Positions 1 to 21,247 of a DNA stretch of 21,879 bases are shown here, piece after piece. Origin of the DNA: a virus (taxonomy: Duplodnaviria; Heunggongvirae; Uroviricota; Caudoviricetes); IMG/VR virus record IMGVR_UViG_2547132415_000014, positions 1-21,879 of that record. The stretch is one strand, 5' to 3'. The number at the start of each line of letters is the position of its first letter. Position 1 is the first letter of the stretch. A program made the translations under genes and the position numbers. The notes under the pieces are model-generated. The model worked only from the letters and a program-made list of their open reading frames with translations. It ran no database searches and was not told the DNA's origin.

Positions 1-344
1 CGGGAAGAGTTATGACAAGGCCAATGTGTAATGATGATGATGGAATGTTGATTTCTCAGGTCGTCGATTCCGTCATGTACATTGACAAGAAAGCCTTTGG
101 CATCCTCCTCAGCTACTACGCCCACGGCTCTTCCAAGCACGCCATTGCATCTTACTATCATCGCGTCGCAAGACCTCGCAAGATGTTATGCCGGGGCGGC
201 GGGCGCATTCAAAAACCATCGCTCGCAACCTGTCGACGGGAAGTTGACGAAATCCTCAATGCCTCGTTGTTTATGATTTACCCGGTTCTGGATAGTGCGT
301 TTAAAAACCGGAAACGTGTAGAGAAAATTAAACATGTAGCATAG
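1..344 (+). CDS. late-gene antiterminator Q-like protein, C-terminal part (5' end lies outside window)
   Basis: Reading frame stays open to the window start (stop TAG 342-344); Cys/His-rich product; located immediately upstream of a tR'-type terminator and a lambda-type lysis cassette, the canonical Q position in lambdoid phages. Family assignment is by position, not by recognised sequence. Confidence 0.5.
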   Translation, partial: GRVMTRPMCNDDDGMLISQVVDSVMYIDKKAFGILLSYYAHGSSKHAIASYYHRVARPRKMLCRGGGRIQKPSLATCRREVDEILNASLFMIYPVLDSAFKNRKRVEKIKHVA

Positions 345-350
345 AACGTG

Positions 351-381
351 TTGACATCATTGAGCAAATGAGCAACACTAT
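351..381 (+). promoter_or_regulatory. candidate late promoter (PR'-like): TTGACA -35 at 351-356, weak -10 candidates 17-19 bp downstream
   Basis: Perfect TTGACA hexamer 7 bp after the Q stop and upstream of the T-tract terminator; -10 element is poor (aacact/cactat), as is typical for Q-dependent late promoters. Positional inference. Confidence 0.25.
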
Positions 382-387
382 TCGCAT

Positions 388-431
388 AAGCTGCCGTTAG
401 TGACTCTTAAGTTGCAACGGTGGCTTTTTTT
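388..431 (+). terminator. tR'-like intrinsic terminator (GC-rich stem 388-398/416-426 followed by T7 run 425-431)
   Basis: ccgtt(394-398) pairs with aacgg(416-420), extended by flanking pairs, then tttttttat; sits between Q and the late genes as tR' does in lambda. Confidence 0.5.
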
Positions 432-435
432 ATTT

Positions 436-510
436 GGGTCAGTCGTATAAAGGTCATTACGGAAGGCTGTTAACCTTCTTATCGTGGTTCGAGCCCACGC
501 TGTCCCGCCA
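436..510 (+). tRNA. tRNA-Asn (anticodon GTT), phage-encoded, divergent
   Basis: Hand-folded cloverleaf: acceptor 436-442/500-506 (6 of 7 pairs, one T:T mismatch), D-loop with GG, anticodon stem gaagg/ccttc perfect, loop ctGTTaa, T-arm cgtgg-ttcgagc-ccacg, discriminator G plus encoded CCA 508-510. Confidence 0.6.
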
Positions 511-515
511 AACAT

Positions 516-591
516 GCTGGTTTAGCTCCAATGGTAGAGCGGTCGCCTTGTAAGCGAATGGGTAGCGGTTCAAGTCCGTTAACCAGCACCA
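516..591 (+). tRNA. tRNA-Thr (anticodon TGT), phage-encoded
   Basis: Hand-folded cloverleaf: perfect 7-bp acceptor gctggtt/aaccagc, D-arm gctc-caatggta-gagc, anticodon loop ctTGTaa (one mismatch at 27:43), 5-nt variable loop, T-arm agcgg-ttcaagt-ccgtt, discriminator A plus CCA 589-591. Confidence 0.65.
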
Positions 592-813
592 TAACTGAGC
601 TGTAGCCACTGGCTATCCTGAATTCATCAGTGATAGTTACGCTGCGGCCTTCTACACATGACCTTCGTGAAAGCGGGTGGCAAGAGGCTGCGCTAACAAC
701 CTCCTGCCGTTTTGCCCGTGCATATCGGTCACGAACAAATCTGATTACTAAACACAGTAGCCTGGATTTGTTCTATCAGTAATCGACCTTATTCCTAATT
801 AAATAGAGCAAAT

Positions 814-827
814 CCCCTTATTGGGGG
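814..827 (+). promoter_or_regulatory. sdi-type RNA stem-loop (cccc-ttatt-gggg) just upstream of the dual start codons of holin S
   Basis: Hairpin ccccttattggggg lies 6 nt upstream of the Met1-Lys2-Met3 dual start (ATG 834 and ATG 840), matching the lambda S translational-control arrangement. Confidence 0.6.
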
Positions 828-833
828 TAAGAC

Positions 834-1157
834 ATGAAGATGCCAGAAAAACATGACCTGTTAGCCGCCATTCTCGCGGCAAAGGAACAAGGCATCGGGG
901 CAATCCTTGCGTTTGCAATGGCGTACCTTCGCGGCAGATATAATGGCGGTGCGTTTACAAAAACAGTAATCGACGCAACGATGTGTGCCATTATCGCCTG
1001 GTTCATTCGTGACCTTCTCGACTTCGCCGGACTAAGTAGCAATCTCGCTTATATAACGAGCGTGTTCATCGGCTACATCGGTACTGACTCGATTGGTTCG
1101 CTTATCAAACGCTTCGCTGCTAAAAAAGCCGGAGTAGAAGATGGTGGAAATCAATAA
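834..1157 (+). CDS. S: holin, lambda S-type class I (dual-start holin/antiholin)
   Basis: 107-aa product beginning [22 protein letters not shown]..., recognised as essentially lambda S; three hydrophobic segments; Met-Lys-Met dual start. Confidence 0.95.
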
Positions 1158-19189: not shown

Positions 19190-21247
19190 ATGACAGACAT
19201 TACAGCCAATGTTGTAGTGAGTATGCCTTCGCAACTCTTCACTATGGCTCGTTCTTTTAAAGCCGTAGCCAATGGCAAAATTTATATCGGTAAAATTGAC
19301 ACTGACCCAGTAAATCCTGAAAACCAGATTCAGGTTTGTGTGGAGAATGAAGACGGTTCTCACGTTCCTGTTTCGCAACCAATAATCATTAACGCTGCTG
19401 GATATCCGGTATATAACGGACAGATTGCCAAGTTCGTAACTGTGCAAGGCCATTCTATGGCTGTTTATGATGCGTATGGTGCACAGCAGTTCTATTTTCC
19501 TAATGTGCTGAAGTATGACCCGGATCAGTTAAGACAAGAGTTAGCAACAGAGGGTAATGAAATACTTGTTGACGACTCCCGTATTGCAGTTAAAAGTGTT
19601 CATGTAAATTCAAAACTTAGAACCCAGCACAATAAAAACGCAGAAATAATCACGCCAAATGATTTTATATCAAATTATGACATGATATCTGCAGCTATTA
19701 ACTCTGGAGATAGTGCCGCAGTATTTAATTCCAGGTATGCATTCACAATAACAGTTGGGGAATATGGTAATTTTAAATCTATTAGTGATGCTCTAAACTC
19801 AGCTGTTGCACTGCGTCCACTATGGAAAAATGGCATTGATTTTTGCATAATTAAAATTCTTTCCGGTTTTGTGCTCAATGAGCAAATAGAAATTTCAGCA
19901 GGATGTGACTTATCATGGATTAAAATAATATCAGAAGACTCAGTGGTTTTCTCTGATACCAGTTTGTTTACTAAAACTGTTAGGACGTATTACGAATACA
20001 AATATTTATTTTACATTTGCGATGCAGCAAAAAGTCCTGTATTTGCTATTCAGATTGAAGAAAATAGAGATGATAGCGATGTTTGTGCATTTATTGTAAC
20101 TCAAAAAGCTGAACTTAATTTCTATCCGTATTCAGGTGCTCGAAAGTTCTACGTTGGAATTCATGGTAGCTTTGGTGCAAAAATTAGTGCATATCATACC
20201 GGATGTGCTCCTGATGAGGAAAGTGTTGCTGCATATATGCCAGAAGGGTATTACGTATGTGATTTTTCTTATAGCAGATACTCTTCCCTGCAACTGGTAA
20301 ATAATGTCAAGGCATCAATGCCTGTAAGCAAGTTTGAACGGTGCACAGAGAGTACGGTTGCGTCAGTTAATTGTATTTATAATGTTAAAGCAGATTTTCA
20401 GGGGTCAAGTGCAAGCTATTGTTATATAGGATGGAATGTAAGAGATGGTTCAAATGTTAATATACGCGACCATAAAACTATACATTGCTCATATCGTGGA
20501 TTAACCTGCATTCATACAGCATATGTTGATGCAAGACGACATGACGTTGAAGAAAGTGATGCAGAAACAAGTGGTAAAGTCCTTGAACCAAATATTGAAA
20601 AAGGTTTTTATGGATGTGCACTTGGTGTGCGTATTGATGGTGCGGGTTGTGTTGATGTTGCTGGTAATGATATGCGCAATTGTGGAACAGCCGTTAATGC
20701 AGACACTGGTGCTGTTATTTCAGGAAAGGCTGTAGATATCTCAGGGGCTGAGTTGGGATTTGATTGCCATGCAGGAGCATCTGTTAATTTTCCAAGGCTA
20801 TGGGGTACAGATATAAAAAAATTAATGCACCTCCAAGATGGTGTAAGGTTTAACTCTAATATTTGTCATGTATTTGGTGCAAATCCCACAAAAGATATTA
20901 GATGGATTGATGTAGAGAGATCTGAAGCTTCTTTTATGAATGCAACGCTGGATGCAGATTCAGGATTTATTGCCGACTGTGGTAGTAGGATAACCATTGA
21001 AGGAAGTAAAGTTAAAAACCAAACAATAAGAAGTTTTTTTGGATCACATGTGGCTATAAATAATACTGTTGCTGACAGAACTTATTCAGATATAGCCGAT
21101 GTTCCGCAGTTGACTATTAGTGGAGGATCTTTTATTTCTGCTACAGGATATTCTAATTCTGACTCCAGCCCTCTTAGGTTGAGCACAACACGAAATACAC
21201 TTGGAGTTGGAGGAGCCATATTTTCAACCAATGGGGAAGTTTCATGA
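19190..21247 (+). CDS. tailspike protein: P22 gp9-type N-terminal head-binding domain fused to an unrelated beta-helix-like receptor-binding/depolymerase domain
   Basis: First ~110 aa ([34 protein letters not shown]...NVLKYDPDQ) recalled as P22 tailspike head-binding domain; the rest is unrelated, AT-rich, Cys-rich (~20 Cys) and Asn/Ser/Gly-rich. Confidence 0.9.

What the first reader, a model, noticed from the sequence alone, without database searches (positions are those of the whole stretch)
436..591. Two tandem phage tRNAs (Asn-GTT, Thr-TGT) placed 5 nt after the tR'-type terminator
Both fold into cloverleaves with encoded CCA ends and are separated by only 5 nt. Because they begin 5 nt after the terminator T-tract, they would be made mainly when Q antiterminates, tying tRNA supply to late gene expression. 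The tRNA-Asn is divergent (acceptor T:T mismatch, 3-bp D-stem) and the tRNA-Thr has a 27:43 mismatch, so functionality is not assured. The AT-rich tailspike domain is a plausible consumer of ACA and AAC-type codons.
Basis: seen in the sequence. Interest (0 to 1): 0.45.

Follow-up and report, generated by a model that had tools for sequence, protein, structure and literature searches.

The report
Known nuclease-resistant phage tRNA pair
Two genuine tRNA genes (Asn and Thr) sit directly after the late-gene terminator of this P22-like coliphage; the same pair is already annotated in phage 21, Sf6 and over 100 other phages, and its odd-looking tRNA-Thr has been shown elsewhere to be a cleavage-resistant stand-in for a host tRNA that anti-phage nucleases destroy.

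Summary
ARAGORN and Rfam both call tRNA-Asn(GTT) at 436-510 and tRNA-Thr(TGT) at 516-591. Both encode CCA, a 5-nt spacer separates them, and the first starts directly after the U-tract of a strong hairpin terminator.

The feature is not new. The whole Q, pR', QBE, tR' and tRNA module matches phage 21: Q is 113/113 aa identical, the promoter and leader are 100% identical, and each tRNA differs by 1 nt. The pair is annotated in phage 21, Sf6, SfI, BTP1 and others, and occurs in 117 phage records and 347 of 5,426 complete E. coli genomes.

Published work points the other way for tRNA-Thr. The phage 21/HK446 allele is 75/76 identical with the same anticodon arm. It resists the P2 OLD nuclease and rescues cells and phages, because of its shortened (27:43) and altered anticodon stem.

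[quoted passage not shown] Both phage tRNAs differ from the host at the mapped determinants (16, 39, 41).

My best reading is a late-operon cassette of nuclease-resistant replacement tRNAs, with supply of the over-used ACA codon (3-fold enriched) as a compatible second benefit. The tRNA-Asn role is untested.

The parts
1..344 (+). 3' two-thirds of the late antiterminator gene Q (phage 21 type); it runs off the window start
   Evidence: The translation of 3-341 is 113/113 aa identical to residues 50-162 of phage 21 Q. The stop at 342-344 matches the phage 21 annotation.
351..393 (+). Late promoter pR' with its Q-loading signals: -35 at 351-356, Q-binding element at 359-374, -10 at 374-379, transcription start at 386, sigma-dependent pause element at 387-393
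   Evidence: Coordinates were transferred from the phage 21 GenBank annotation (window = locus - 1171). The window is 100% identical to phage 21 across 340-435.
388..435 (+). tR' intrinsic terminator of the late leader: hairpin 388-426, then U7 at 425-431 and AUUU at 432-435
   Evidence: RNA fold of -20.2 kcal/mol, z -6.1. It is annotated as a terminator in phage 21 and Sf6.
434..592 (+). The 159-nt tRNA cassette as a mosaic unit. It replaces a 163-nt lambda segment between the tR' T-tract and AACTGAGC
   Evidence: Three-way alignment of lambda, HK446 and the window. The same cassette follows both Q21-type and lambda-type leaders.
436..510 (+). tRNA-Asn(GUU), 75 nt, CCA encoded. It has G73, a U4.U69 mismatch, a U13.U22 mismatch, a 4-nt variable loop and anticodon stem GAAGG/CCUUC
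   Evidence: ARAGORN and Rfam at 53.0 bits. It differs from the phage 21 tRNA-Asn by 1 nt, in the T-loop at 494.
511..515 (+). 5-nt spacer AACAT
   Evidence: Sequence. Among related loci, 25 have AACAT and 25 have AATAT.
516..591 (+). tRNA-Thr(UGU), 76 nt, CCA encoded. It has G1-C72, C2-G71, A73, C14, anticodon stem GUCGC/GCGAA and a G27.A43 mismatch
   Evidence: ARAGORN and Rfam at 61.2 bits. It is 75/76 identical to the phage 21 and HK446 tRNA-Thr; the only difference is position 26 (G versus A).
593..833 (+). Lambda-type untranslated late leader upstream of the holin gene, including a strong hairpin at 599-648
   Evidence: Near-identical to lambda and HK446. The hairpin folds at -28 kcal/mol, z -4.5.
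834..1157 (+). Holin gene (lambda S type), the first protein-coding gene of the late operon
   Evidence: ORF list. It is aligned to lambda S and the HK446 holin.

Best explanation
These are two functional phage tRNA genes forming a 159-nt mobile cassette at the head of the late operon.

How they are made: pR' fires constitutively and RNA polymerase normally stops at tR' (388-435), a few nucleotides before the first tRNA. When Q21 loads at the QBE and pause site, polymerase reads through. It transcribes tRNA-Asn, tRNA-Thr, the lambda-like leader, and the lysis and virion genes as one RNA. RNase P and 3' trimming then release the two tRNAs, whose CCA ends are encoded.

[quoted passage not shown] Those host tRNAs are cut in the anticodon stem by Toprim abortive-infection nucleases carried by rival mobile elements (P2 OLD, PARIS AriB). 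The replacements would let the ACA- and Asn-rich late proteins still be translated. Extra capacity for the over-used rare codon ACA is a compatible secondary benefit.

Shown here: the genes, their anatomy, their conservation, and their differences from the host at the nuclease sites.

Shown by others: promoter, Q and terminator function in phage 21, and OLD resistance and rescue by the phage 21/HK446 tRNA-Thr.

Inferred: that this holds for the G26 allele in this window, any role of tRNA-Asn, resistance to AriB, and the processing and timing.
For: Genuine, constrained tRNAs:
- Searches detect both genes.
- 117 phage records and 347 of 5,426 complete E. coli genomes carry the pair.
- Compensatory double changes occur in tRNA-Thr at 3:70, 5:68 and 6:67, and in tRNA-Asn at 6:67, 7:66 and 28:42 (canonical numbering).
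- Identity elements are present: Asn has G34 U35 U36 and G73; Thr has G1-C72, C2-G71, G35 and U36 (sequence; identity sets from established knowledge).

Regulatory context: Q, pR', QBE and tR' are identical to phage 21 and the terminator fold is strong.

Anti-nuclease reading, tRNA-Thr:
- P2 OLD cuts host tRNA-ThrU after nt 28 and nt 40. It needs paired CNG motifs and a full-length anticodon stem.
- The HK446 tRNA-Thr, which has the same sequence, restored plating of OLD-sensitive phages.
- The window's anticodon arm is identical: G27.A43, U28-A42, 28-30 UCG and 40-42 CGA, against host CUG and CAG.
- G27.A43 is kept in 53/53 family loci but occurs in only 3/67 other phage tRNA-Thr(UGU) genes.

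Anti-nuclease reading, AriB and tRNA-Asn:
[quoted passage not shown] T5 Lys, Thr and Asn variants together neutralise PARIS (PMC12409363).
- Both window tRNAs differ from the host at all three positions. Thr has A16, G39, G41; Asn has A16, C39, U41. T5 Thr also has G39.
- Host tRNA-Asn has CNG on both strands (CGG and CCG). The window tRNA-Asn has it on neither (AAG and CUU).
- P2 OLD also cleaves host tRNA-Asn(GUU), more slowly than ThrU.

Phage context: phage 21 itself encodes Gam, the OLD trigger. The window's late genes contain 101 ACA and 306 Asn codons.
Against: - The phage tRNAs are only 54/76 (Thr) and 47/76 (Asn) identical to the host tRNAs. Differences at positions 16, 39 and 41 could therefore be incidental.
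- No experiment addresses tRNA-Asn, or AriB resistance of either tRNA.
- One divergent tRNA-Asn variant (1 of 52 loci) carries CNG on both strands (CAG and CUG).
- The cassette lacks tRNA-Lys(UUU), the main AriB target, which T5 needs in order to escape PARIS.
- A single phage tRNA-Thr did not rescue lambda or recB cells from OLD. HK446 also carries a protein inhibitor (Oad2), and the preprint's authors doubt an anti-OLD purpose for its tRNA.
- That preprint's top OLD targets do not include Asn.
- The tRNAs are made behind tR', but OLD is triggered early by Gam, so the timing is awkward unless leak through tR' matters.
- ACA enrichment gives an independent, older rationale.
Confidence: 0.6

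Rival explanations
1. Codon supplementation only. The tRNAs simply raise decoding capacity for codons that the lower-GC phage genome over-uses relative to E. coli, above all ACA, which is read by the single-copy minor tRNA ThrU. They are timed with bulk late protein synthesis.
For: - ACA is 16.8 per 1000 codons in the window's late genes against 5.4 in 42 E. coli K-12 genes (3.1-fold). It makes up 29% of Thr codons against 10% in the host.
- The tailspike uses ACA at 23.4 per 1000.
- The same bias was reported for SfI (17.3 against 7.1; PMC3636060).
- The phage L authors noted that 24 of 25 Asn codons in the coat gene are AAC (PMC8022706).
Against: - Asn codons are only 1.35-fold enriched. Asn is read by an abundant tRNA with four gene copies in K-12 (own knowledge), and the SfI authors found no Asn bias.
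- AGG (6.8-fold), AGA (6.3-fold) and ATA (3.2-fold) are more enriched than ACA, yet the phage carries no tRNA for them.
- In phage 21, ACA is no more frequent in late genes than in early genes (12.6 against 14.2 per 1000).
- This reading does not explain why the 27:43 mismatch and the altered stem are conserved.
- Extra host tRNA-ThrU did not substitute for the phage tRNA under OLD.
Confidence: 0.25
2. Decaying or non-functional tRNA-like relics. The mismatches (U4.U69, 3-bp D-stem, G27.A43) would reflect erosion of genes that are no longer used.
For: - The mismatches are real.
- tRNA-Thr also has C14 instead of the near-universal A14.
- A few singleton variants carry likely damaging changes, for example in the anticodon loop.
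- One E. coli prophage has a truncated, chimeric tRNA-Asn.
Against: - The covariance-model scores are 24-32 bits above the threshold.
- Copies are nearly identical across more than 100 phages of Escherichia, Salmonella, Shigella and Klebsiella.
- The mismatches are invariant, while true pairs change by compensation.
- The 75/76-identical tRNA-Thr is functional in vivo and restores ACA decoding.
Confidence: 0.04
3. Compensation for a host tRNA gene disrupted by prophage integration. The 2026 OLD preprint suggested this for the HK446 tRNA.
For: The suggestion appears in 10.64898/2026.07.10.737580. Many temperate phages integrate into tRNA genes.
Against: - The cassette lies at the late-operon leader, not at the attachment site.
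- Phage 21 carries it but integrates in icd, not in a tRNA gene.
- P22-like phages integrate in thrW (anticodon CGU) and rebuild that gene (PMC8022706).
- Neither anticodon in the cassette matches those targets.
- Expression behind tR' is the wrong regime for a lysogen housekeeping function.
Confidence: 0.03
4. RNA-processing punctuation. The tRNAs would mainly serve as RNase P and RNase E cleavage signals that detach the structured pR' leader from the late mRNA and set its 5' end and stability. Decoding would be secondary.
For: - The first tRNA abuts the terminator.
- A strong conserved hairpin (599-648) follows the second tRNA.
- The phage L authors note that it is unknown how the tRNAs are excised.
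Against: - Lambda has the same leader and hairpin with an unrelated 163-nt segment in place of the cassette, and it works without tRNAs.
- Identity elements and anticodons are conserved, which a mere processing signal would not need.
Confidence: 0.05

Closest known systems
Phage 21 late-leader tRNA-Asn and tRNA-Thr (GenBank OL657228, CPT_21_64/65; 'tRNAThr21' of Govande et al. 2025, PMC12445682)
   Same: - The Q protein is the same (113/113 aa).
- pR', QBE, the pause element and tR' are identical.
- The two tRNAs have the same order, spacing and position.
- The anticodon arms are identical.
   Different: - Each tRNA differs by one base: Asn T-loop C versus T at 494, and Thr position 26 G versus A at 541.
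- The downstream genes differ. Here they are a lambda-type S/R/Rz lysis cassette and P22-like virion genes, whereas phage 21 has a pinholin, a SAR endolysin and a lambda-like siphovirus tail.
Sf6, SfI, BTP1, HK446 and other lambdoid and P22-like phages with the same cassette
   Same: The tRNA-Asn plus tRNA-Thr pair is 96-98% identical and always sits immediately after the TTTTTTATTT end of tR'.
   Different: - The upstream antiterminator modules differ. HK446 has lambda Q and the roughly 200-nt 6S leader; Sf6 has a Q21-like protein with a different promoter and QBE.
- The HK446 record does not annotate the tRNAs.
[quoted passage not shown]
   Same: - The Thr and Asn anticodons are the same.
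- There are substitutions at AriB determinant positions 39 and 41. T5 Thr also has G39.
- The anticodon stems carry mismatches: T5 Asn G27.A43, T5 Lys C27.U43 and T5 Thr U28.U42.
   Different: - The sequences are unrelated.
- T5 is a virulent phage with about 24 tRNAs under early and middle promoters.
- The cassette here has no tRNA-Lys.
- AriB resistance of the lambdoid tRNAs has not been tested.
Other tRNA cargo in the same lambdoid slot: phage L/ST64T Asn+Leu(UAA) (PMC8022706), and Stx phage 933W ileZ-argN-argO downstream of Q (own knowledge)
   Same: The tRNAs lie between the Q/pR'/tR' module and the first late genes, and are read only by polymerase that has passed the late terminator.
   Different: The anticodon sets differ. 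The 933W set matches the rare codons AUA and AGA/AGG and fits codon supplementation better. Variants seen here include Asn|Phe|Thr|Arg(UCU), Ile(GAU)|Thr and Ser(GCU)|Thr|Arg|Met(CAU).

Membership tests
Canonical elongator tRNA (Rfam RF00005) | Covariance-model score at or above the curated gathering score (29 bits), matched over the full model | tested here: met
   53.0 bits (Asn) and 61.2 bits (Thr), model positions 1-71 of 71. ARAGORN independently calls both.
Canonical elongator tRNA (Rfam RF00005) | Cloverleaf with a 7-bp acceptor stem, a 7-nt anticodon loop with U33 and purine 37, a T-arm with GTTCRA, G18-G19 and U8 | tested here: met
   The alignment to the model and the sequences show all of these. 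Exceptions that are not defining: Asn has U4.U69 and U13.U22; Thr has G27.A43 and C14 instead of A14.
Canonical elongator tRNA (Rfam RF00005) | Evolutionary maintenance of the helices (compensatory changes) | tested here: met
   Double changes occur in Thr at 3:70, 5:68 and 6:67, and in Asn at 6:67, 7:66 and 28:42 (canonical numbering), among 11-12 distinct variants from 52 loci. Diversity is low, so this is supportive rather than statistically strong.
Canonical elongator tRNA (Rfam RF00005) | Processing, aminoacylation and use in translation | not testable with these tools
   The identity elements are present by sequence. Function has been published only for the 75/76-identical phage 21/HK446 tRNA-Thr. 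There are no data for tRNA-Asn.
Phage 21-type Asn-Thr late-leader cassette | Near-identity to the annotated phage 21 and Sf6 tRNA pair, in the same order and with the same 5-nt spacer | tested here: met
   One difference per tRNA against phage 21. Megablast identity is 98.8% to phage 21 and 96.8% to Sf6.
Phage 21-type Asn-Thr late-leader cassette | Placement immediately 3' of the tR' U-tract and 5' of the lysis genes | tested here: met
   The TTTTTTATTT|GGG junction is shared by almost all family loci, with five or more leader types.
Nuclease-evading phage tRNAs (anti-OLD / anti-PARIS) | Same anticodon as a host tRNA targeted by the nuclease | tested here: met
   UGU and GUU. Host tRNA-Thr(UGU) is the primary OLD target and a prime AriB target. 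Host tRNA-Asn(GUU) is a secondary target of both.
Nuclease-evading phage tRNAs (anti-OLD / anti-PARIS) | Altered recognition or cleavage site relative to the host tRNA | tested here: met
   - Thr: C28U/G42A, G27.A43, G39, G41, A16.
- Asn: no CNG on either strand, C39, U41, A16.
- Caveat: overall identity to the host tRNAs is only 62-71%, so these differences may be incidental.
Nuclease-evading phage tRNAs (anti-OLD / anti-PARIS) | Demonstrated resistance to cleavage | not testable with these tools
   Published for the phage 21 tRNA-Thr against P2 OLD. Not done for the G26 allele, for tRNA-Asn, or for AriB.
Nuclease-evading phage tRNAs (anti-OLD / anti-PARIS) | Rescue of cells or phage from the defence system | not testable with these tools
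   Published for phage 21 tRNA-Thr (1000-fold or greater gain in viability) and HK446 tRNA-Thr (plating of HK97, HK542 and Bas34 restored). Rescue was insufficient for lambda.

The most novel reading that the evidence does not exclude
The Asn-Thr pair is a dedicated two-part counter-defence cassette against Toprim anticodon-stem nucleases (P2 OLD and PARIS AriB), which rival P2/P4-type elements carry in the same hosts. On this reading, the so-far ignored tRNA-Asn (not annotated in the HK446 record, and not mentioned in the preprint that tested HK446) is a second resistant replacement tRNA. Its conserved non-host positions 16, 39 and 41 and its lack of CNG would be the resistance determinants. 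Placement directly behind the leaky, constitutively fired pR'/tR' would supply the tRNAs both at a basal level and massively in the late phase.
Probability: 0.4. Interest if true: 0.5.

Novelty: already known. Interest (0 to 1): 0.3.

Why it matters
As a sequence feature this is ordinary. The cassette has been annotated since the Sf6 and phage 21 genomes, and its tRNA-Thr was characterised functionally in 2025-2026.

There are two useful points. First, structural 'defects' in a phage tRNA (a shortened anticodon stem, odd stem sequences) should not be read as signs of decay, because they can be the adaptive feature. Second, the partner tRNA-Asn matches a secondary target of the same nucleases, differs from the host at the mapped determinants, and has not been tested. 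It is overlooked in at least one studied phage (HK446).

If tRNA-Asn is also protective, then common temperate coliphages and Salmonella phages carry a compact, portable anti-abortive-infection module. About 6% of complete E. coli genomes contain the cassette. That would bear on prophage competition and on phage host range.

Tried and rejected
1. I asked whether the 163-nt lambda segment that occupies the cassette's place is a decayed tRNA pair. Rejected: there is no Rfam match even at E<=10, and a global alignment scores no better than shuffles (z 0.9, 96 of 500 shuffles as good).

2. The simple promoter and terminator scan of 1-1200 found neither pR' nor tR'. These are limits of the scan's criteria, not absence. 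Identity to the phage 21 annotation and folding settled the question.

3. I looked for a separate promoter for the tRNAs. There is no space, because the tRNA starts 4 nt after the T7 run, and no candidate was found.

4. The first genome-contig scan used a wrong spacer length and found nothing. The corrected scan gave only 5 species representatives, so it says little beyond 'Enterobacteriaceae and gut metagenome contigs'.

5. I tried to obtain BTP1 expression values for the tRNAs from the supplements. They are not held.

6. Guo et al. 1991, the original phage 21 late-region paper, is not held.

7. The bacterial Schlafen and HepS papers were checked for Asn and Thr(UGU) relevance. Schlafen is not relevant. 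HepS cuts tRNA-Thr isoacceptors in the anticodon loop, which is identical in the phage and host tRNAs, so no evasion is predicted.

8. I considered whether late genes are specifically ACA-rich. In phage 21 they are not.

Full report
**What is there**

ARAGORN finds exactly two tRNA genes in the window: tRNA-Asn(GTT) at 436-510 and tRNA-Thr(TGT) at 516-591, both on the + strand. Rfam's tRNA model scores them 53.0 and 61.2 bits over its full length, against a gathering score of 29 (E 5e-9 and 3e-11). Both carry an encoded CCA, and the spacer is AACAT.

tRNA-Asn has a U4.U69 mismatch and a U13.U22 mismatch, which leaves a 3-bp D-stem. tRNA-Thr has a G27.A43 mismatch. tRNA-Thr also has C14 in place of the usual A14.

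The 50 nt upstream (386-435) fold into a long hairpin spanning 388-426 (-20.2 kcal/mol, z -6.1), followed by U7 and AUUU. The first tRNA therefore starts 4 nt after the T7 run, essentially at the release point of an intrinsic terminator.

**Context**

The window is the late region of a mosaic P22-like coliphage or prophage. Its best overall match is CUS-3, with 66% of the window covered at 95% identity.

Its left end is the phage 21 late control module. The partial Q protein is 113/113 aa identical to Q21, and nucleotides 340-435 are identical to phage 21. The curated phage 21 annotation can therefore be transferred:
- pR' -35 at 351-356
- Q-binding element at 359-374
- -10 at 374-379
- transcription start at 386
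- sigma-dependent pause element at 387-393
- terminator at 388-435

In phage 21 the two tRNAs follow immediately and are annotated as such. Sf6 has the same annotation, 'similar to phage 21'.

An alignment with lambda and HK446 defines the unit exactly. A 159-nt cassette (434-592) replaces an unrelated 163-nt lambda segment between the tR' T-tract and AACTGAGC. After that, the lambda-type leader and the S holin gene follow. The lambda segment is not a relic of the cassette.

**Distribution and conservation**

Megablast finds the region in 117 phage records from Escherichia, Salmonella, Shigella and Klebsiella. At least 80% of it is present in 347 of 5,426 complete E. coli genomes.

In an IMG/VR scan, 53 loci carry this tRNA-Thr family.
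- The G27.A43 mismatch is present in 53/53, and the whole anticodon arm is identical in 51/53.
- Only 3 of 67 other phage tRNA-Thr(UGU) genes in the same scan have a 27:43 mismatch.
- True helix pairs vary by compensation: Thr at 3:70, 5:68 and 6:67, and Asn at 6:67, 7:66 and 28:42 (canonical numbering).
- The Asn U4.U69 mismatch is never repaired; it is U.U or U.C in all 12 distinct variants.

The cassette follows at least two well-characterised antiterminator systems, the Q21-type short leader and the lambda Q/6S leader as in HK446. The junction is always TTTTTTATTT|GGG.

Asn|Thr is the arrangement in 51 of 55 loci. Rare alternatives combine the same tRNA-Thr with Phe, Arg(UCU), Ile(GAU), Ser(GCU) or Met(CAU) tRNAs.

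**What is already published**

The pair is described for Sf6, phage 21, SfI, ST64T/L (Asn+Leu there) and BTP1.
- The SfI authors reported an ACA bias and no Asn bias (PMC3636060).
- The phage L authors noted that it is unknown whether the tRNAs are excised from late mRNA (PMC8022706).
- BTP1 transcriptomics lists the two tRNAs among highly expressed prophage loci and places the start of the lytic operon 'directly after' them (PMC7067206).

Two recent lines of work are decisive.
- Govande et al. [quoted passage not shown] Cleavage needs paired CNG motifs and a full-length stem. The phage 21 tRNA-Thr protects cells, resists cleavage, and owes this to a shorter stem plus altered pairs (C28U/G42A).
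- A 2026 preprint found that the HK446 tRNA-Thr restores plating of OLD-sensitive phages. That tRNA has the same sequence as the phage 21 one.
- Belukhina et al. [quoted passage not shown] Positions U39, A41 and U16 are determinants, and T5's Lys, Thr and Asn variants together neutralise PARIS.
- P2 OLD also cleaves host tRNA-Asn(GUU), more slowly.

**Comparison done here**

The window's tRNA-Thr differs from the tested allele only at position 26 (G for A), and its anticodon arm is identical.

| tRNA | Stem 27-31 / 39-43 | CNG motifs (28-30, 40-42) | Positions 16, 39, 41 |
|---|---|---|---|
| Host thrU | ACUGA / UCAGU | CUG, CAG | U, U, A |
| Window Thr | GUCGC / GCGAA | UCG, CGA; G27.A43 mismatch | A, G, G |
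| Host asnT | GCGGA / UCCGU | CGG, CCG | U, U, C |
| Window Asn | GAAGG / CCUUC | AAG, CUU (neither strand CNG) | A, C, U |

T5's PARIS-neutralising tRNAs show the same kind of changes: Thr has G39, and there are stem mismatches at 27:43 or 28:42.

The caveat is that the phage tRNAs are only 71% (Thr) and 62% (Asn) identical to the host tRNAs overall. Differences at these sites could therefore be incidental. One divergent Asn variant has CNG on both strands.

**Codon usage, the classical explanation**

- In the window's late genes ACA is 16.8 per 1000 codons, against 5.4 in 42 E. coli K-12 genes (3.1-fold).
- The 38%-GC tailspike uses ACA at 23.4 per 1000, which is 43% of its Thr codons.
- Asn codons are only 1.35-fold enriched and mostly AAT.
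- AGG, AGA and ATA are more enriched than ACA, but the phage carries no tRNA for them.
- In phage 21, ACA is as frequent in early genes as in late genes (14.2 against 12.6 per 1000).

Codon supply is therefore plausible for Thr and weak for Asn. It does not explain the conserved stem peculiarities.

**Mechanism I commit to**

1. pR' fires constitutively, and polymerase terminates at tR' just before the tRNAs.
2. Polymerase modified by Q21 reads through and transcribes the two tRNAs as the first elements of the late RNA.
3. RNase P and 3' trimming release the tRNAs.
4. They are charged. The Asn and Thr identity elements are present by sequence.
5. [quoted passage not shown] A general boost for the over-used ACA codon is a side benefit.

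I put about 0.6 on this overall. It is higher for tRNA-Thr and about 0.4 for tRNA-Asn.

Problems that remain open:
- The cassette has no tRNA-Lys(UUU).
- A single tRNA-Thr does not rescue lambda from OLD.
- HK446 also carries a protein inhibitor of OLD.
- OLD is triggered early, whereas the tRNAs lie behind tR'.

**Verdict**

The feature is real and well conserved, and it is already known. The worry about functionality is contradicted for tRNA-Thr by experiments on the 75/76-identical allele, and weakened for tRNA-Asn by its conservation, though tRNA-Asn itself has not been tested. The codon-supply idea is only partly supported. The residual novelty is the untested role of tRNA-Asn and the view of the pair as a portable anti-Toprim-nuclease cassette.

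Noticed in passing
L127 (HK446, JQ086372) 611-766: The HK446 GenBank record annotates no tRNAs, but ARAGORN finds both tRNA-Asn and tRNA-Thr right after a lambda-type tR'. [quoted passage not shown]
   Followed up: partly
window 529 (tRNA-Thr position 14) and 451 / 531 (position 16 of Asn / Thr): tRNA-Thr has C14 instead of the near-universal A14; the position is C or U, never A, across the family. Both phage tRNAs have A16 where the host tRNAs have U16. U16 is a D-loop contact of AriB, and its U16C mutation impairs cleavage.
   Followed up: partly
window 439 and 503 (tRNA-Asn 4:69): The acceptor-stem U.U mismatch is never repaired in 12 distinct variants from 52 loci (U.U or U.C), while neighbouring pairs change by compensation. 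I found no explanation.
   Followed up: partly
window 599-648: A strong hairpin lies 8 nt downstream of the tRNA-Thr CCA (-28 kcal/mol, z -4.5). It is conserved in lambda and HK446 upstream of the holin gene. It could be a processing or stability element of the late leader.
   Followed up: no
window 679-712 and 733-773: Two further conserved stem-loops lie in the lambda-type leader. The first is GGCAAGAGG...CCTCCTGCC followed by GTTTTG; the window has an A.C mismatch where lambda and HK446 pair perfectly. The second is GAACAAATC...GATTTGTTC. Neither is statistically striking (z -1.5 and -2.7).
   Followed up: no
L135 (E. coli LZSFT34, NZ_CP132728) 701-860: This locus has the same Q21-type leader and terminator, but the tRNA-Asn is broken in the T-loop. 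It is fused to the 3' end of a Gly-like tRNA (…GGTTCGATTCCCGCTACCCGCTCCA), followed by another terminator, and ARAGORN calls no tRNA. This looks like recombination between tRNA genes at the conserved GGTTCGA.
   Followed up: partly
L100, L017, L034, L045 (IMG/VR loci): The same tRNA-Thr family occurs with other partner tRNAs: Asn|Phe|Thr|Arg(UCU), Ile(GAU)|Thr, and Ser(GCU)|Thr|Arg(UCU)|Met(CAU). Thr, Ile(GAU) and Ser(GCU) are the reported targets of the Gifsy-1 HepS anticodon nuclease (PMC13043305), which may or may not be a coincidence.
   Followed up: no
window 386-435: Terminated pR' transcripts would be a roughly 45-50-nt structured RNA, made constitutively in lysogens. This is analogous to lambda 6S RNA and the Stx-phage sRNA StxS (PMC7547250, title and abstract seen). 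The leader alone, without the tRNAs, is present in several hundred more E. coli genomes: 828 have a match, against 347 that have at least 80% of the query.
   Followed up: no
window 19190-21247: The 685-aa tailspike ORF has 38% GC against about 50% for the neighbouring virion genes. Only its first ~340 nt (to about window 19530) match most related phages, while the rest matches a different set (JEP4, Sf101). This is the usual receptor-binding-domain mosaicism.
   Followed up: no
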